Assembly: GCA_016194285.1 (NCBI GenBank)
Contig: JACQBZ010000035.1
Coordinates: 385-64,384, forward strand
DNA from: Nitrospirota bacterium
Lineage (GTDB): Bacteria > Nitrospirota > Nitrospiria > JACQBZ01
Direction of reading: 5' to 3'
DNA length: 64,000 nt
Positions 22,146 to 30,897 of this stretch are shown piece by piece (within the stretch, counting starts at the first letter, position 1; the number at the start of each line of letters is the position of its first letter). The translations under genes were made by a program, and so were the position numbers. Under the pieces are notes generated by a model. It was not told the origin of the DNA, searched no databases, and saw only the letters and a program-made list of their open reading frames with translations.

Positions 22146-24164
22146 CTATCGATCGAAAACGGCCACGAGGATCAGCACAAATAGAACCAGACCGATCGCG
22201 ACGGCCGCTCCCCCGGCGATCCAGCCCAAGACCTTCAGCCACATCGGCGGCGGTTCGGTCCGGATCGAGGCCAGCCGGCCCTCTTCCGTCAGCCGCTTGA
22301 ATTCCTCCGGCCGTTCCTCGCGGAGCTCCGTCTCGCTCACCCGCCCCGTGAAGATCACGAGATCCATCGGAAACTTCTCCGGCCGCAGGTGGGTGTTGAA
22401 ATAATGAATGGTGAAGATGAAGGCCGTCGCCAGGAGGGCCTCCTCTCCGTGAATGAGCAGCGCCACGTTGAACCACCATCCCGGAATAAATCGGGCCATG
22501 AATTCATCGAACCACAGGATGTAGCCCGTGATCCCGATGACCGGCATTCCCCAGAAGACGGCCAGGTAATCGAATTTCTCCCAATAGGTAAAGCGGCCGA
22601 ACGTGGGCTTGGACCCGAGGCCGAAGAACCAGAGAAAGTTTCGGACGATATCCACGATATCCCGGGGCTGAGGCATCAGGGAGTTCGGCCCCCAAAGGAC
22701 GCCCCAGTCCTTTCGGACCCCGACCCAATAGAGGATCTGGATCAAATGGTAGAAGAACAGGATCGTGAGAATGACCGCAAAGATCCGATGACAAATTCCC
22801 ATCGCACCGAAGCCGCCCAGGGCGCGCGCCAGCCGGGCCGCCCAGGCGGACTCGCTGTAGAGCAGAGGCAACCCCGTGATCACGATTCCCAGGAAGCTCA
22901 CAATCAGAATCCCGTGAAGGATCCGTTGACCGAGCGTGAACCGGACGTAATAGGAACCGGTCTTCTGCGGATGAGCTCGGGGGCGTTCACCGGACCACCG
23001 GGCCACCATCGCCCGCATCCCCCAGAGCAGCGTGTGGAGGCCGAAAAAGGCAAACACCCCCAGCAGAAGCAGAACCATAAACCACCCGACATAATAGAGC
23101 ACCGGATTACGGTCCCGATCATCCGGATCGGCGTGGGGATCGTATTGGACAAAACCGGCCGTGGCTCCCGCGTGGCATCTCCCGCAGGTCTGTACCAGGT
23201 TCGCCGGATTAATCTTCGAACGGAGGTCCCGACCCGGCTGAATGTCGTGGTCGCCGTGGCAGTCGGAGCAGCGCGCCACGCGGGTGAAGCCGAGGCGGGT
23301 CACCTTCCCATGGTAGGTGTCGCGAAACGTTCGGAGTGACTCGGAGTGACAGGTCCCGCACTCCCGGACGACTTCCAGTTTCCAGGCCGCCATCTCGACC
23401 CGGCGAATCTCATGGGTGGAGTGGCAGTCGGTGCAGACGGGGGCGGAGTAGAGGCCCGCCGCGAATCGCTGACCGTGAATACTTTCGCGGTAACTATTCA
23501 GTACACCGGCATGGCAGCTTCCGCAGGTGTCGGGGACATTGGTTCGATGGACCCGCGAGGCGGGATCGGTCGCCGACCGGATGTCGTGAAAGCCGTGGCA
23601 GCCGGCGCAGTTCGGCGCGACGACGAGACCGCTTTGAGTCACGGCCTTGCCATGAATCGAGTCCCGGTAATGTTCGTAAATATTTTCGCCGGGGGGCCGG
23701 CCGTTCAAAACCGGTTTTGAACCGCCATGGCACCGGCCGCAGGTCTTTGCGAGATTGAAATGATTGACCGATGATCTCGGATCTTTGGCCGGAAAGATAC
23801 CGTGCGTGCCGTGGCAATCGACGCAGCCGGGGGCTCCGGGTCGACCCGGCCCGACGGCCTGGGCGTGAATGCTTTTGGCATAATCCGCCGACGCTCCTTC
23901 ATGGCAGGAGCCGCACCGGACCGGCTGGGGCTTGCGGCCGGCCAAGTAATGGTTCTCGGCCCCTTCGTGGCAGTCGAGGCAGGCCAAATTTCGGTGGGGG
24001 GACTGCCCCAGCAACTCCCGATCCACGACGGGTTTTTCCGTTTGATGACAGCCCATGCATGATTCGTCTTTTTCATTTTGGGCATAAGCGAATGCGGGTG
24101 AAAGAGCCGGGAGAAAAAGAATCGCCAGAACGATATTTAGCACTGTGACGTTCCATTTATGCAT
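22146..24164 (-). CDS. 11-haem c-type cytochrome fused to a b-type cytochrome membrane domain (CbcL-like)
   Basis: Start at MHKWNVTVLNIVLAILF (signal/anchor). 11 CxxCH motifs counted. C-terminal multi-TM domain has His-bearing helices (RILHG, CHRIF, LIHGEE, FTIHYFNTHLRPEKFP). Confidence 0.8.
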   Translation of the reverse strand: MHKWNVTVLNIVLAILFLPALSPAFAYAQNEKDESCMGCHQTEKPVVDRELLGQSPHRNLACLDCHEGAENHYLAGRKPQPVRCGSCHEGASADYAKSIHAQAVGPGRPGAPGCVDCHGTHGIFPAKDPRSSVNHFNLAKTCGRCHGGSKPVLNGRPPGENIYEHYRDSIHGKAVTQSGLVVAPNCAGCHGFHDIRSATDPASRVHRTNVPDTCGSCHAGVLNSYRESIHGQRFAAGLYSAPVCTDCHSTHEIRRVEMAAWKLEVVRECGTCHSESLRTFRDTYHGKVTRLGFTRVARCSDCHGDHDIQPGRDLRSKINPANLVQTCGRCHAGATAGFVQYDPHADPDDRDRNPVLYYVGWFMVLLLLGVFAFFGLHTLLWGMRAMVARWSGERPRAHPQKTGSYYVRFTLGQRILHGILIVSFLGIVITGLPLLYSESAWAARLARALGGFGAMGICHRIFAVILTILFFYHLIQILYWVGVRKDWGVLWGPNSLMPQPRDIVDIVRNFLWFFGLGSKPTFGRFTYWEKFDYLAVFWGMPVIGITGYILWFDEFMARFIPGWWFNVALLIHGEEALLATAFIFTIHYFNTHLRPEKFPMDLVIFTGRVSETELREERPEEFKRLTEEGRLASIRTEPPPMWLKVLGWIAGGAAVAIGLVLFVLILVAVFDR

Positions 24165-25074
24165 GGCCTCTCCAGGCATCCAAGAGCAGACCGACAATCT
24201 GGAGCAGCCCCACGGCGAGATGGGTTCCAACGGTGAGCCCCATCGCGGGAATGAGTCGCTGCGATTGATCGTAAAATCGATTAAGGAGGCGGCCGGCCGG
24301 AACGGCGAGTGGAAGACTCGCAAGGGCCAGCAAGGTCCAGGCCGGTAAAAGGCCGAGCGCAACGGGCAGGAGGATACTCAGATACGCCGCGACGAGAATG
24401 GCAAAATATCCCTTCACCGCTTTCTTCTGTCCCACCCGCACAATCCAGTGGCGCTTTCCAGCCGCCGCGTCGGAATCGGCGTCCGGAAATTCATTGATAT
24501 AAAGGATGGCGGCGATGAGAAATCCGATAGGGAGGGAAAGCAGGAAGGACGGAACGGTCACGGTGTGTGAATAAACGTAATAGCTCCCCATCACGGCCAA
24601 CGGACCCAGCAGGAGCCCCACAAGGGGCTCGCCCCATCCGCGATATCCGAGCTTCAACGGCGGCGCGGTGTAGAAATAGCTCAGCACCACCCCGGAGACT
24701 CCAAACACGAGCAGTCGCCAGTCGGTCAGTAACGTCAGATACAACCCGAGCAGGATCGCGACGGCGTAGGAGATCATCGCCGCGATGAAGACTGTCTCGG
24801 AGGGGATTCGCCCCTCCTGAATGACCCGGCTGCCTCCCGAAAACGGGGTCGGCCGGGTATTCCGTTCATCCGCACCGCTCCGGTGATCGAAGTAGTCGTT
24901 GGAAAGGTTGGTCGCGATATTGATCGCTCCGATCGCAACCACGACGATCCAAAACAATCCCCATGAAAACGTTCCGTCCCGGTAGGCCAACGTTGAGCCC
25001 AAAGCGACCGGAATCAGCGAGGCCTGGAGAAACGGAACCCGCATGGCCCGGATCCAGAGAGCGATCCGTTTCAT
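24157..25074 (-). CDS. UbiA-family prenyltransferase, MenA-like
   Basis: Multi-TM, NLSNDYFDHRSGAD Asp-rich motif typical of 1,4-dihydroxy-2-naphthoate prenyltransferase-like enzymes. 8-nt overlap with the next gene. Confidence 0.75.
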   Translation of the reverse strand: MKRIALWIRAMRVPFLQASLIPVALGSTLAYRDGTFSWGLFWIVVVAIGAINIATNLSNDYFDHRSGADERNTRPTPFSGGSRVIQEGRIPSETVFIAAMISYAVAILLGLYLTLLTDWRLLVFGVSGVVLSYFYTAPPLKLGYRGWGEPLVGLLLGPLAVMGSYYVYSHTVTVPSFLLSLPIGFLIAAILYINEFPDADSDAAAGKRHWIVRVGQKKAVKGYFAILVAAYLSILLPVALGLLPAWTLLALASLPLAVPAGRLLNRFYDQSQRLIPAMGLTVGTHLAVGLLQIVGLLLDAWRGHA

Positions 25075-25088
25075 GAATCGGCACCCTT

Positions 25089-29614: not shown

Positions 29615-29628
29615 GTTTGGCTCCTCTT

Positions 29629-30897
29629 TCAGAATGCCCAATCCAACGTGATCCTTCCTAAAGGCCGATGGACAAAATTTTCATTGATGTTATCCTCCAA
29701 CCGGGCCGAAAACGAAACGTCCGTTCGGAGACTCCACCGGCCGCCCACCCAATACCGCGTGGCATAATTCTCGCTGAAATCATCCGGCCGTTTGTACGTG
29801 TCGTACTGCGCGCCCGCAGACAAGCTGAGGCGCTCTCCGACCTTGTAATCGCCGTCGATCTCAAAGCCCCAATCATGCCCCGCGTAACCGGTCCGGCGAT
29901 CGACGGAAACTTTGAGGGTCAGATGCTCGAGGGGATAGACGTTGACGCCGGCCGTGTAGATATTCGCGTGCTCCGTGTCCCCGTAGAGTTGCCGGGTATA
30001 AGAAGCCGTCAAGCCCAGCGGCGCGCTGAGACTGTAATCGGCCTGGACGAGATATTCACGGTAGGAGTCCACCGCGAAGACGCTGTAAATCGAGGTGGAA
30101 TCAAACGTCGGGTAGGAATGGTAAAACTCTCCCTTGAGCATCAGGTCATTCACCGGGTAAAGATCCAATCCCACGAGGGCCTCGGAAACATCCGCCGAGG
30201 CCCGATCGTATCGGACCTCTCCGTACGGACTGAAATAATTCCAGGACCTTCGAAAGTTCAGTCCGAACTCCTCCCGGGCGATATTCCAATCGTCGTACCG
30301 CCGGACATAGCTGATCCCGAGCTGGGTGGCTCGGACATTCTCCAAACGAATGTTCAGTCCGATAAAATGATTCCCGAGCTTGGAATCCGTGCCGTCCAAT
30401 GAAAACAGAACATCCGCGCCTTCCGCAAAGGTGACGCCGATCGGGCCCAGACCGCTCGCATCCAGCCGGATACCATCCAGCACCGCCGAGCCGGCGGTGA
30501 AATTCACAAACTGCCGGCCCAGCCTCAGCGATGTATTATCAAACGGAGAATAATTCATGTAGAGATAGTAAAGCCTTCCCAAAGGACCGGTTTCCCGGAT
30601 TTCGCTCTCGGTGTAATCCCTCCAGGCCCGTCCGTAACCCGTGATCGAGAATGTCGCGCTTTGAGGCTTGTAATTAAATCTCAAGTACTGCGCGATGATG
30701 CCCTGACCCTCGCCCATCAGGTCATCGCCCCATAAAAACTGCGTCGAAGATTTGACATCCAGGATCTTGTCTTGCGGCGGCTTGTCCTGTGCACGGGCGA
30801 AGGACGAAAGGAAAAGTATCCCGGCAAGACCGATCCAAATCCATCGTCGGTAAGAAAACCGCTCAACGGATGAAGCACCGAATTTTACAGGTCGCAT
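29629..30897 (-). CDS. Outer-membrane beta-barrel (porin) of a porin-cytochrome set, OmbB-like position
   Basis: Start MRPVKFG..WIWIGLAGILFLSSFARAQ signal peptide. 422 aa with alternating strand pattern, ends ITLDWAF. Followed 14 nt later by the multihaem genes. Confidence 0.7.
   Translation of the reverse strand: MRPVKFGASSVERFSYRRWIWIGLAGILFLSSFARAQDKPPQDKILDVKSSTQFLWGDDLMGEGQGIIAQYLRFNYKPQSATFSITGYGRAWRDYTESEIRETGPLGRLYYLYMNYSPFDNTSLRLGRQFVNFTAGSAVLDGIRLDASGLGPIGVTFAEGADVLFSLDGTDSKLGNHFIGLNIRLENVRATQLGISYVRRYDDWNIAREEFGLNFRRSWNYFSPYGEVRYDRASADVSEALVGLDLYPVNDLMLKGEFYHSYPTFDSTSIYSVFAVDSYREYLVQADYSLSAPLGLTASYTRQLYGDTEHANIYTAGVNVYPLEHLTLKVSVDRRTGYAGHDWGFEIDGDYKVGERLSLSAGAQYDTYKRPDDFSENYATRYWVGGRWSLRTDVSFSARLEDNINENFVHRPLGRITLDWAF

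What the first reader, a model, noticed from the sequence alone, without database searches (positions are those of the whole stretch)
22146..30897. Complete porin-cytochrome / CbcL-like electron conduit sitting directly behind an uptake-hydrogenase + hyp supercluster
Seven co-directional genes are separated by -8 to 61 nt.
1. 29629-30897: a signal-peptide protein ending ITLDWAF, read as an outer-membrane barrel.
2. 28853-29614: a periplasmic cytochrome with 9 CxxCH motifs.
3. 26154-28835: an 893-aa protein with lipobox LLMGGC, 12 CxxCH and 1 CxxxCH.
4. 25613-26092: a tetrahaem cytochrome.
5. A cNMP-binding protein with no HTH.
6. A MenA-like prenyltransferase.
7. 22146-24164: 11 CxxCH motifs fused to a His-bearing multi-TM b-type domain, the CbcL-style way of coupling to the quinone pool.

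The order of genes 1 to 3 (porin, periplasmic multihaem, lipoprotein multihaem) matches Geobacter ombB-omaB-omcB. The set begins only 145 nt after hypE, at the tail of a sigma-54-driven group 1 hydrogenase array. H2 oxidation, the quinone pool and trans-outer-membrane electron transfer therefore look like one genomic unit. The direction of electron flow (mineral reduction versus Fe(II)/Mn(II) oxidation) cannot be read from sequence.
Basis: partly seen in the sequence, partly recalled or inferred. Interest (0 to 1): 0.8.

Follow-up and report, generated by a model that had tools for sequence, protein, structure and literature searches.

The report
Hydrogenase-linked porin-cytochrome electron conduit
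An uncultured groundwater Nitrospirota bacterium encodes, in one same-strand gene array, a hydrogen-oxidising enzyme followed by a complete Geobacter-type chain of haem proteins that reaches from the inner membrane through an outer-membrane pore to the cell surface, which suggests it can pass electrons from H2 to minerals outside the cell.

Summary
All seven genes, their spacers (-8 to 61 nt), the haem-motif counts (9; 12+1; 4; 11), the lipobox and the 145-nt gap after hypE are as described.

Genes 1-3 are homologues of the Geobacter OmbB/OmaB/OmcB (Pcc) triad:
- 39/44/30% identity to Geobacteraceae orthologues (E 2e-91, 9e-72, 4e-60), in the same gene order.
- A confidently modelled 22-strand barrel.
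- An invariant lipobox Cys and an invariant set of 13 haem motifs in the large cytochrome.

Gene 7 belongs to the published CbcL/MtrH/MtoC family. It has 11 invariant CxxCH motifs, six TM helices, an FdnI-like b domain and conserved His.

The Pcc triad is widespread in Nitrospirota and Geobacterales, but it is joined to a hydrogenase only in the window's Nitrospiria clade. There the junction survives rearrangement, and in one relative the triad sits inside the hyp cluster. In two more distant lineages a hydrogenase or hyp genes lie within 10 kb of the triad.

Best reading (about 0.55): H2 -> cytochrome b -> menaquinone -> CbcL-like -> c554-like shuttle -> Pcc -> extracellular acceptor. The direction of flow is not proven. 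A Cyc2-type Fe(II)-oxidase candidate 3.5 kb downstream keeps the inward (metal-oxidising) reading alive.

Verdict: a new variant of a known kind, of moderate interest.

The parts
40433..40447 (-). Sigma-54 type -24/-12 promoter element upstream of the hydrogenase small-subunit gene.
   Evidence: Exact match to TGGCAC-N5-TTGC. Only two exact matches occur in the 64 kb window. Function not tested.
39138..40376 (-). [NiFe]-hydrogenase small subunit, Tat-exported, with a C-terminal membrane anchor. The true start is probably downstream of the ORF start.
   Evidence: TIGR00391 at 363 bits and a TAT signal domain at residues 59-83. Pfam Oxidored_q6 plus NiFe_hyd_SSU_C.
37411..39000 (-). [NiFe]-hydrogenase large subunit, 529 aa.
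   Evidence: PF00374 E 2e-175. NF033181 at 610 bits, above its 600 cut-off. The L1 motif RICGVCPTSH and the C-terminal DPCLACTVH are present.
36728..37471 (-). Hydrogenase b-type cytochrome subunit (quinone-reducing membrane anchor).
   Evidence: TIGR02125 at 177.8 bits against a cut-off of 121.5. PF01292 E 5e-29.
31043..36731 (-). Maturation genes: protease 36225-36731, hypA 35879-36232, hypF 33537-35882, hypC 33222-33530, hypD 32132-33265, hypE 31043-32110.
   Evidence: Pfam HycI, HypF domains, HypD and AIRS/AIRS_C. hypA and hypC were read from their translations and match the HypA/HypC genes called in the syntenic relatives.
30898..31042 (-). hypE-porin intergenic spacer (145 nt).
   Evidence: No terminator-like or sigma-70-like site was found on this strand. 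The equivalent spacer is 34-76 nt in relatives.
29629..30897 (-). g1: OmbB-type outer-membrane porin, 22-strand barrel.
   Evidence: AF2 pLDDT 84.8 with 22 strands. It is 39% identical (E 2e-91) to the Citrifermentans bremense porin of a pcc cluster. The family has 592 homologues.
28853..29614 (-). g2: OmaB-type periplasmic nonahaem cytochrome with a signal peptide and no lipobox.
   Evidence: 9 CxxCH. It is 44% identical (E 9e-72) to the Geobacteraceae 8-haem protein, and the ninth haem sits in an insertion. It lies next to the porin in 75 of 77 loci.
26154..28835 (-). g3: OmcB-type outer-membrane lipoprotein cytochrome with 13 haem motifs (12 CxxCH plus CX3CH), and a lineage-specific beta domain at about residues 551-621.
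   Evidence: C24 and all haem motifs are invariant in 38 homologues. It is 30% identical (E 4e-60) to the 12-haem lipoprotein of C. bremense. A 45%-identical homologue is named OmcB by its depositor. AF2 pLDDT is 81.
25613..26092 (-). g4: c554-like tetrahaem cytochrome, the presumed periplasmic shuttle.
   Evidence: PF13435 E 9e-16 and 4 CxxCH. It is conserved at this position in L080, L085 and L089.
25089..25592 (-). g5: stand-alone cNMP-binding protein, an accessory gene that is not conserved.
   Evidence: PF00027 E 6e-20 with no HTH. Absent from the syntenic relatives L080/L081.
24157..25074 (-). g6: MenA-like naphthoquinone prenyltransferase.
   Evidence: UbiA E 2e-36. TIGR00751 menA is above its cut-off. 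It overlaps g7 by 8 nt, and the pairing is conserved in L080 and L083.
22146..24164 (-). g7: CbcL/MtrH/MtoC-family inner-membrane cytochrome. An 11-haem periplasmic domain is fused to a six-TM FdnI-like b-type domain.
   Evidence: The 11 CxxCH motifs and TM-domain His 377, 417, 459, 473, 572 and 587 are invariant. Six hydrophobic segments. The family profile hits FdnI 1kqf_C at E 5e-5. Homologue P0147 is OGW82754.1 in the published CbcL family table.

Best explanation
The array encodes a self-contained respiratory chain that carries electrons from H2 to an acceptor outside the cell.

Proposed path:
1. A Tat-exported, periplasm-facing [NiFe] uptake hydrogenase, anchored by its cytochrome b, reduces menaquinone. 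The MenA-like enzyme helps supply that quinone.
2. The CbcL-type protein re-oxidises menaquinol in its FdnI-like dihaem-b membrane domain and passes electrons up its 11-haem periplasmic domain.
3. The c554-like tetrahaem carries electrons across the periplasm.
4. The 9-haem OmaB-type cytochrome, lodged in the 22-strand OmbB-type barrel, takes them through the outer membrane.
5. The 13-haem OmcB-type lipoprotein on the surface delivers them to Fe(III)/Mn(IV) minerals, humics, an electrode or a partner cell.

What is shown: the identity and architecture of each part, its homology to Pcc and CbcL family members, and conserved linkage to the hydrogenase.

What is inferred: complex formation, localisation, co-transcription from the sigma-54 promoter, and above all the outward direction of flow.
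For: Parts and motifs:
- Coordinates, spacers and motif counts are confirmed.
- The barrel has 22 strands.

Homology to Pcc:
- The porin-cytochrome pair is invariant across 77 loci (a third multihaem gene follows in 72), including Geobacteraceae pcc clusters.
- Pairwise E-values are 2e-91, 9e-72 and 4e-60.
- The Geobacteraceae 8-haem protein clusters at 90% or more with a Geobacter sp. M21 protein. M21 has a single pcc cluster, identified by BLAST with OmbB/OmaB/OmcB (PMC4245776).
- The characterised Pcc works outward, in Fe(III) reduction (PMC4589669).
- The lipobox Cys and all 13 haem motifs of g3 are invariant.

CbcL membership of g7.

The hydrogenase is a cytochrome-b-linked, Tat-exported type with the usual TGC proximal-cluster signature.

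Linkage to the hydrogenase in relatives:
- The same Hyd-hyp-Pcc-c554-UbiA-CbcL order occurs in a relative whose porin is 76% identical.
- The Pcc triad is embedded between hypE and hypA/hypF in a 69% relative whose hydrogenase large subunit is only 42% identical.
- hypE is followed directly by the CbcL-like gene in a third relative.
- hypFDE or a NiFe small subunit lie beside the triad in two more distant lineages, L026 and L033.
- No terminator or promoter was found in the hypE-porin gap.

Energetics (established knowledge): H2 -> MK -> Fe(III)/Mn(IV) is downhill at every step.
Against: - Direction is not encoded in sequence. The CbcL/MtoC family occurs in both Fe(III) reducers and Fe(II) oxidisers (PMC6295460).
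- A Cyc2-signature Fe(II)-oxidase candidate and a cbb3-type dihaem cytochrome c lie 3.5-5 kb downstream.
- Related Nitrospiria carry HypX-like genes, which suggests hydrogenase maturation in the presence of O2.
- The sister lineage Ca. Manganitrophaceae is proposed to use PCCs for Mn(II) oxidation (PMC9040806).
- Only 2 of the 77 related loci from the species-representative genome scan (L026, L033) have a hydrogenase or hyp gene within 10 kb. Within the small Nitrospiria clade, shared synteny could be partly inheritance.
- No expression, localisation or physiology data exist.
- A direct comparison with the G. sulfurreducens PCA proteins themselves was not possible.
Confidence: 0.55

Rival explanations
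1. Inward flow. The Pcc triad takes electrons from solid or soluble Fe(II)/Mn(II), a cathodic mineral or a partner cell, and the CbcL-type protein acts as a quinone reductase (as proposed for MtoC). The hydrogenase is then a co-regulated second lithotrophic donor, so the array is a 'donor island'.
For: - A Cyc2-signature gene (AIPAFARKY-CTSCH-PRL) and a dihaem c cytochrome lie just downstream.
- The CbcL/MtoC family is found in Fe(II) oxidisers.
- Ca. Manganitrophaceae, also in class Nitrospiria, are proposed to use Cyc2 plus PCC for Mn(II) oxidation.
- HypX-like genes occur in relatives.
Against: - The only characterised homologues (Geobacter Pcc) work outward.
- Electron flow from Fe(II), and still more from Mn(II), to menaquinone is uphill (established redox potentials).
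- A dedicated MenA plus a quinol-type cytochrome next to a quinone-reducing hydrogenase makes a complete donor-to-acceptor chain. Two donors feeding one pool would not need to be embedded in each other's operons.
- The hydrogenase small subunit has the standard, not the O2-tolerant, proximal-cluster motif.
Confidence: 0.2
2. Adjacency without coupling. The Pcc/CbcL genes form their own operon that merely lies next to the hyp genes. The conduit serves respiration with whatever donor is available, and the shared synteny reflects recent common ancestry.
For: - Most Pcc loci in Nitrospirota and Geobacterales are stand-alone units of 3-4 genes in unrelated contexts.
- The 145-nt gap is long enough for a promoter.
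- The ribosome-binding site of g1 is weak.
Against: - The hypE-porin junction persists although the neighbouring hydrogenase structural genes differ (42-47% identity), HypX-like genes are inserted and hypA/hypF have moved downstream of the triad.
- The gap shrinks to 34-76 nt in relatives.
- The CbcL-like gene directly follows hypE where the Pcc triad is absent.
- Two distant lineages place a NiFe small subunit or hyp genes beside the triad (L033, L026).
- No terminator was predicted.
Confidence: 0.13
3. The terminal reaction is not mineral reduction. It is reduction of a soluble or colloidal substrate at the cell surface or in the periplasm (polysulfide/S0, selenite, humic quinones), with H2 as the classical donor.
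For: - The porin family is abundant in sulfur-cycling Thermodesulfovibrionia, Dissulfurispiraceae and Ca. Sulfobium.
- A Geobacter multihaem cytochrome of the ext cluster turned out to be a periplasmic polysulfide reductase (PMC13510729).
- Cytochrome-b-linked hydrogenases of the Wolinella HydABC type support polysulfide respiration (established knowledge).
Against: - None of g2-g4 matches the ExtKL/MccSep model beyond E 0.006, and no selenocysteine or Cys-ligated active-site signature was seen.
- A 22-strand barrel plus a lipoprotein with 13 bis-His-type haem motifs is the architecture of a wire, not of a catalytic site.
- The closest homologues from named organisms are the Geobacteraceae pcc clusters.
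Confidence: 0.1

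Closest known systems
Geobacter Pcc complex OmbB-OmaB-OmcB (orfR-ombB-omaB-omcB; Liu et al. 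2014/2015, Shi et al. 2014).
   Same: - The same gene order: porin, periplasmic multihaem, lipoprotein multihaem.
- Sequence homology of all three proteins to Geobacteraceae orthologues (39/44/30% identity).
- A porin of about 20-22 strands.
- An atypical haem motif in the outer cytochrome, which is a noted Pcc trait.
   Different: - 9 rather than 8 haems in the periplasmic protein; the extra haem lies in an insertion.
- 13 rather than 12 haem motifs, plus an extra small beta domain, in the lipoprotein.
- No TetR-type OrfR; the cluster follows hypE instead.
- The host is a Nitrospirota, a phylum not among those listed in the 2014 Pcc survey.
- The quinol oxidase, periplasmic shuttle and hydrogenase are encoded contiguously, whereas they are dispersed in Geobacter.
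CbcL (GSU0274) / MtrH / MtoC family of inner-membrane cytochromes (Zacharoff 2015; PMC6295460).
   Same: - An N-terminal periplasmic multihaem c domain fused to a six-TM HydC/FdnI-like b-type domain with conserved His.
- A 41%-identical homologue is listed in the family table.
   Different: - 11 haem motifs against 9 in CbcL (the family ranges from 3 to 23).
- Translationally coupled to a MenA-like gene.
- Sits beside a hydrogenase.
Mto/Mtr gene clusters that encode a whole pathway (mtoA-mtoB-mtoD-cymA/mtoC of Sideroxydans/Gallionella; mtrCAB).
   Same: The same principle: one cluster encodes the quinone-coupling cytochrome, the periplasmic shuttle and the trans-outer-membrane porin-cytochrome module.
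   Different: - No homology to these proteins. DmsE/MtrA TIGR03508 scores 17.5 bits against a cut-off of 192.
- No match at E<=1 to the MtrA, MtrB or MtrC chains of 6r2q for g1-g3.
- The g3 model has no significant fold match to any solved structure, MtrC and OmcA included.
Wolinella-type HydABC and other cytochrome-b-linked group 1 uptake [NiFe]-hydrogenases.
   Same: A Tat small subunit, a large subunit with Cys-only Ni site motifs, a HydC-like cytochrome b, a protease and hyp genes.
   Different: Here the maturation genes run straight into an extracellular electron-transfer gene set. The subgroup was not assigned because HydDB was not available.
PCC modules of Ca. Manganitrophus (Nitrospirota), proposed for Mn(II) oxidation.
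   Same: The same phylum and class, a porin plus multihaem cytochrome module, and co-occurrence with Cyc2 (Cyc2-like gene).
   Different: - Those are described as porin-dodecahaem modules, and PCC_1 is reported as restricted to Manganitrophaceae.
- Homology to the present triad could not be tested.
- No hydrogenase is mentioned anywhere in that paper (0 occurrences of the word).

Membership tests
Pcc (OmbB/OmaB/OmcB) porin-cytochrome complex | [quoted passage not shown] | tested here: met
   The AF2 model from a 34-sequence alignment has pLDDT 84.8 and 22 strands. It shows generic large-barrel fold matches. The C-terminus ends in aromatic F.
Pcc (OmbB/OmaB/OmcB) porin-cytochrome complex | An adjacent gene for a small periplasmic multihaem (8-haem) cytochrome with a signal peptide and no lipobox. 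| tested here: met
   253 aa, 9 CxxCH, signal peptide ...ARTWA/ATP. It is 44% identical to the Geobacteraceae 8-haem protein. Such a gene follows the porin in 75 of 77 loci with 8 or 9 motifs. The haem count differs by one.
Pcc (OmbB/OmaB/OmcB) porin-cytochrome complex | An outer-membrane lipoprotein multihaem (12-haem) cytochrome encoded third. | tested here: met
   The lipobox LLMGGC has C24 invariant in 38 homologues. The 12 CxxCH and the CX3CH are invariant. E 4e-60 to the 12-haem lipoprotein of C. bremense. Actual lipidation and surface exposure were not tested.
Pcc (OmbB/OmaB/OmcB) porin-cytochrome complex | Sequence homology to the G. sulfurreducens PCA proteins themselves. | tested here: inconclusive
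The link is indirect, through Geobacteraceae clusters with porin, 8-haem and 9-12-haem lipoprotein genes, some preceded by a TetR-like gene, through a member from Geobacter sp. M21, which has one pcc cluster, and through a homologue that its depositor named OmcB.
Pcc (OmbB/OmaB/OmcB) porin-cytochrome complex | An upstream TetR-family regulator (OrfR/OrfS). | tested here: not met
   hypE lies upstream. TetR-like ORFs are seen only in the Geobacteraceae loci. This is a feature of the Geobacter operon, not of the complex.
Pcc (OmbB/OmaB/OmcB) porin-cytochrome complex | The three proteins form a complex that moves electrons across the outer membrane. | not testable with these tools
   This needs biochemistry or multimer modelling with haems.
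CbcL/MtrH/MtoC inner-membrane cytochromes | An N-terminal periplasmic domain with several CxxCH motifs. | tested here: met
   11 CxxCH, all invariant in 21 homologues, behind a signal peptide.
CbcL/MtrH/MtoC inner-membrane cytochromes | A C-terminal six-TM HydC/FdnI-like b-type cytochrome domain with conserved His. | tested here: met
   Six hydrophobic segments at 362-670. The family profile matches FdnI 1kqf_C at E 5e-5 over 228 positions. TIGR01583 scores E 2e-8. His 377, 417, 459, 473, 572 and 587 are invariant. Pfam PF01292 alone is below its cut-off (26 against 30 bits).
CbcL/MtrH/MtoC inner-membrane cytochromes | Homology to recognised family members. | tested here: met
   P0147 (E 8e-210, 41% identity over 95% of g7) is A3C47_05160 / OGW82754.1, which is listed in Table S2 of PMC6295460. 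A direct comparison with GSU0274 was not possible.
Mtr/Mto/Pio (MtrAB(C)) conduits | An MtrA/DmsE-family decahaem, an MtrB-family 26-strand porin and an MtrC/OmcA-family outer cytochrome. | tested here: not met
   TIGR03508 scores 17.5 and 24 bits against a cut-off of 192, and there is no TIGR03507 hit for g3. No hit at E<=1 to 6r2q chains A, B or C with g1-g3. The g3 model has no significant PDB fold match.
ImcH | Three N-terminal TM helices followed by a NapC/NirT-like multihaem domain with a CX3CH motif. | tested here: not met
   g7 has the opposite layout (haems first, then a b-type six-TM domain) and no CX3CH.
Group 1 membrane-bound uptake [NiFe]-hydrogenase | A Tat-signal small subunit, a large subunit with the L1 and C-terminal Cys motifs, a cytochrome b anchor and maturation genes. 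| tested here: met
   The subgroup (1b-like versus others) was not assigned. hypB was not seen.

The most novel reading that the evidence does not exclude
In this Nitrospiria clade the uptake hydrogenase, its maturation genes, a dedicated naphthoquinone prenyltransferase, a CbcL-type quinol oxidase, a periplasmic shuttle and a Pcc conduit form a single sigma-54-controlled transcription unit. That would be a portable 'H2:extracellular-acceptor oxidoreductase' operon.

It would make members of class Nitrospiria, whose cultivated members are so far aerobic nitrite, ammonia or Mn(II) oxidisers, hydrogenotrophic metal reducers in groundwater. Together with the nearby Cyc2 it would make them organisms able to run iron or manganese redox chemistry in both directions.
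Probability: 0.3. Interest if true: 0.65.

Novelty: new variant of a known kind. Interest (0 to 1): 0.5.

Why it matters
H2-driven Fe(III)/Mn(IV) reduction is a major subsurface process, but in the model organisms the hydrogenase, the quinol oxidase and the outer-membrane conduit are scattered around the genome. Their partnership therefore has to be established by genetics. Here the whole path is written in one array and the junction is conserved through rearrangements. That gives four things:
- A direct, testable prediction of physiology for an uncultured groundwater Nitrospirota lineage.
- A compact gene set for heterologous reconstruction of an H2-to-electrode or H2-to-mineral pathway.
- Evidence that the OmbB/OmaB/OmcB family, for which no structure has been solved, is widespread in Nitrospirota.
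- A natural experiment on which inner-membrane partner (CbcL-type) serves a Pcc conduit.

In the public record, five of the seven proteins were looked up: four are 'hypothetical protein' and one carries only a domain name.

Tried and rejected
- PDB sequence searches with g1 (as a profile), g2 and g3 found no informative homologue. No structure of this Pcc family has been solved.
- Foldseek with the porin model gave only generic barrels: Occ porins, usher pores and TonB-dependent receptors.
- Foldseek with the g3 model gave nothing significant. Only the small inserted beta domain weakly matched F1-ATPase N-terminal and phage tail-tip domains.
- NCBIfam has no model for OmbB, OmaB or OmcB, either for the window proteins or for the Geobacteraceae orthologues.
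- Cluster names for the Geobacteraceae proteins were uninformative ('hypothetical', 'cytochrome C'), apart from the link to Geobacter sp. M21.
- Mtr/Mto and ImcH membership was rejected.
- ExtKL/MccSep polysulfide reductase was considered because of NCBIfam hits to selenoprotein families. g4 matches only the c554-like C-terminal part of the UshA-like model, and matches ExtKL at E 0.006, so this was rejected.
- The Nature 2020 Manganitrophus paper could not be read, so homology to its PCCs is untested.
- The GTDB representative scan did not return the window's own species. The closest relatives had to be reached through the look-up of encoding contigs and one metagenome scan.
- CbcL-like homologues elsewhere sit in varied contexts, either alone or next to an ImcH-like gene and a paralogue. 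That family as a whole is therefore not hydrogenase-linked.
- A library search found no paper that combines hydrogenase, porin-cytochrome and Nitrospirota in this sense.

Full report
**Observation.** All seven genes lie on the minus strand with spacers of 14, 17, 61, 20, 14 and -8 nt. The motif counts are exactly as reported:
- g2 has 9 CxxCH.
- g3 has 12 CxxCH plus CxxxCH at C134.
- g4 has 4 CxxCH.
- g7 has 11 CxxCH.
- g1 ends ...ITLDWAF.
- g3 begins MAGVSKFMIGSVGVAMALLLMGGC.

Pfam and NCBIfam give the following:
- g1: a weak Porin_4 hit.
- g2 and g3: generic multihaem families.
- g4: Cytochrome_C554.
- g5: a cNMP_binding domain with no DNA-binding domain.
- g6: UbiA/MenA, with TIGR00751 above its cut-off.
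- g7: multihaem families plus weak Ni_hydr_CYTB and formate-dehydrogenase-gamma hits.

Upstream, in order, are hypE (145 nt away), hypD, hypC, hypF, hypA, the maturation protease, the hydrogenase cytochrome b, the NiFe large subunit and a Tat-signal small subunit. An exact TGGCAC-N5-TTGC element precedes the small-subunit gene. The next gene upstream is a nicotinate phosphoribosyltransferase, so the array starts there. The window is a public 'Nitrospirae bacterium' MAG. Of the five proteins looked up there, g1, g3, g4 and g7 are 'hypothetical protein' and g5 carries only a domain name.

**Genes 1-3 are a Pcc triad.**

The porin family has 592 detectable homologues, almost all from Nitrospirota. 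An AlphaFold2 model built from 34 of them is confident (pLDDT 84.8) and has 22 strands behind a signal helix.

A scan of species-representative genomes returned 77 loci. In every locus where sequence continues, the porin is followed by a 230-280-aa cytochrome with 8 or 9 CxxCH and no lipobox. That is followed in nearly all of them (72 of 77 loci) by a cytochrome of about 500-900 aa with 9-13 CxxCH, often with atypical motifs and usually with a ...GC(G/S)S lipobox.

About half of these loci are Geobacteraceae and other Desulfuromonadales. In the five Geobacteraceae loci read in detail, a TetR-like gene precedes the porin in at least three. The periplasmic protein has 8 haems and the lipoprotein 9-12. 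This is the orfR-ombB-omaB-omcB layout (PMC4589669).

Pairwise comparison with the Citrifermentans bremense proteins gives:

| Window gene | Identity | E-value |
|---|---|---|
| g1 (porin) | 39% | 2e-91 |
| g2 (periplasmic cytochrome) | 44% | 9e-72 |
| g3 (lipoprotein cytochrome) | 30% | 4e-60 |

The ninth haem of g2 lies in an insertion relative to the 8-haem protein.

The Geobacteraceae 8-haem protein falls in a 90%-identity cluster with a Geobacter sp. M21 protein. According to the survey that used OmbB/OmaB/OmcB as BLAST templates, M21 has exactly one pcc cluster (PMC4245776). A 45%-identical g3 homologue was named 'C-type polyheme cytochrome OmcB' by its depositor.

In 38 g3 homologues the lipobox Cys, all 12 CxxCH and the CX3CH are invariant. 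Atypical motifs in the outer cytochrome are a noted Pcc trait.

None of the three proteins belongs to the Mtr/Mto family. The confident g3 model (pLDDT 81) has no significant fold match in the PDB. This fits the view that Pcc and Mtr arose independently, and it shows that no structure exists for this family.

**Gene 7 is a CbcL/MtrH/MtoC-family protein.**
- Its homologues number in the thousands across many phyla.
- In 21 diverse members all 11 CxxCH, the distal His residues and six His in the membrane half are invariant.
- There are six hydrophobic segments after the haem domain.
- The family profile matches E. coli FdnI (1kqf_C) over the membrane domain at E 5e-5.
- This is the published description of CbcL: a multihaem c domain plus a six-TM HydC/FdnI-like b domain (PMC6295460).
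- One hit, 41% identical over 95% of g7, is OGW82754.1, which that paper's Table S2 lists as a family member.
- The family is reported from both Fe(III) reducers and Fe(II) oxidisers, so it does not fix direction.

**Linkage to the hydrogenase.** In most loci the Pcc triad is a free-standing unit, often preceded by a small monohaem cytochrome. The window's close relatives differ:
- A species whose porin is 76% identical has the same order: Hyd-hyp-porin-9-haem-13-haem-c554-UbiA-CbcL. It lacks the cNMP gene and has an extra B12-radical-SAM gene.
- A 69% relative has a different hydrogenase (large subunit 42% identical) and HypX-like genes. It keeps hypE next to the porin and has hypA-hypF after the triad, so the Pcc genes sit inside the hyp cluster. 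A c554-like gene and a CbcL-like gene follow.
- A third relative has no triad, and its hypE is followed directly by the CbcL-like gene and a UbiA gene.
- Two more distant lineages have hypFDE divergently upstream of the triad (L026), or triad - CbcL-like - NiFe small subunit (L033).

The hypE-porin spacer is 34-76 nt in relatives, and the window's 145-nt spacer shows no terminator or sigma-70-like site. Together these make functional coupling more likely than chance adjacency, although the clade is small and transcription is untested.

**Mechanism and direction.** The hydrogenase is a periplasm-facing, cytochrome-b-anchored enzyme with the ordinary (TGC) proximal-cluster signature, so it should reduce menaquinone. 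A MenA-like gene is translationally coupled to the CbcL-type gene. The chain H2 -> MK -> CbcL-type -> c554-like -> OmaB-type in the OmbB-type barrel -> OmcB-type lipoprotein -> external acceptor is thermodynamically downhill, and it matches the only characterised homologues. I put this at about 0.55.

The main rival (about 0.2) is inward flow from Fe(II)/Mn(II). It gains support from a gene found in passing at 17197-18630. That gene carries the published Cyc2 signature AXPXFAR[Q/K][T/Y]-CXXCH-PXL and sits next to a dihaem c cytochrome. The rival is also supported by HypX-like genes in relatives and by the PCC-plus-Cyc2 model for Ca. Manganitrophus.

Chance adjacency (about 0.13) and a non-mineral substrate such as polysulfide (about 0.1) remain possible.

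**Novelty.** Every part belongs to a known family. Four things appear new:
- The contiguous, conserved hydrogenase-hyp-Pcc-shuttle-MenA-CbcL array.
- Its occurrence in class Nitrospiria.
- The 9/13/11 haem variants.
- The extent of the Pcc family in Nitrospirota, a phylum absent from the 2014 survey.

No paper in the held library describes this array. I rate it a new variant of a known kind, with interest 0.5.

Noticed in passing
window 17197-18630 (-), with 16365-17252 (-): A 477-aa ORF with a signal peptide, 'AIPAFARKY', 'CTSCH' (its only haem motif) and 'PRL' four residues later, ending ...GVDFDF. This is the published signature of the fused cytochrome-porin Fe(II) oxidase Cyc2 (PMC8406198). 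It has no Pfam or NCBIfam hit. A dihaem cbb3-type c cytochrome gene follows it. It lies 3.5 kb downstream of the conduit cluster and bears on the direction of electron flow.
   Followed up: partly
window 2276-6286 (-): A second, four-subunit [NiFe] hydrogenase: a Fer4_22 protein, an FAD/NAD-binding subunit, a small subunit and a large subunit. It resembles sulfhydrogenase / group 3b NAD(P)-linked enzymes. The same set lies downstream in the syntenic relatives L080/L081.
   Followed up: partly
window 26154-28835 (-), g3 residues about 551-621: A small six-strand beta domain (pLDDT above 90) is inserted into the 13-haem lipoprotein. It is absent from most homologues. It is the only part of g3 with any PDB resemblance, and that is weak (F1-ATPase N-terminal barrel and phage tail-tip domains; a phage distal tail protein by sequence, E 0.0016). 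It could be a surface-binding module.
   Followed up: partly
window 25089-25592 (-): The stand-alone cNMP-binding protein (no HTH) is an insertion specific to this genome. The closest syntenic relatives go straight from the c554-like gene to the UbiA gene.
   Followed up: yes
L080 12047-13798; L083 12075-13883: Relatives carry a B12-binding radical-SAM gene immediately after the CbcL-like gene (with UbiA nearby), which hints at a modified naphthoquinone. The window has only a 290-nt gap there.
   Followed up: no
L083 7199-8901; L085 6312-8006: Related Nitrospiria have a HypX-like pair (a Formyl_trans_N protein plus an enoyl-CoA hydratase-like protein) between hypD and hypE, which suggests hydrogenase maturation under oxic conditions. 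The window's hyp cluster lacks it.
   Followed up: no
window 51336-53958 (-); 54494-54508 (-); 45236-45802 (-): An NtrC-type sigma-54 activator with a PAS histidine kinase lies about 11 kb upstream of the hydrogenase. There is also a second exact sigma-54 consensus site and a hibernation-factor/cold-shock fusion gene. Whether this two-component system controls the hydrogenase promoter is unknown.
   Followed up: no
L086 9451-9852; L087 9526-9876: In Thermodesulfovibrionia-type loci a small monohaem cytochrome (weak SoxA/TsdA-like hit) directly precedes the porin, making a four-gene unit. The window has no such gene.
   Followed up: no
window 8678-9133 (-): A 151-aa ORF with a signal/anchor segment followed by an extremely Met-, Gly-, Gln- and Lys-rich tail (MKGGGMMKGGEMEMKG...). 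It lies near a heavy-metal-resistance (LTXXQ) gene and a YHS-domain P-type ATPase, and may be a periplasmic Cu/metal-binding protein.
   Followed up: no
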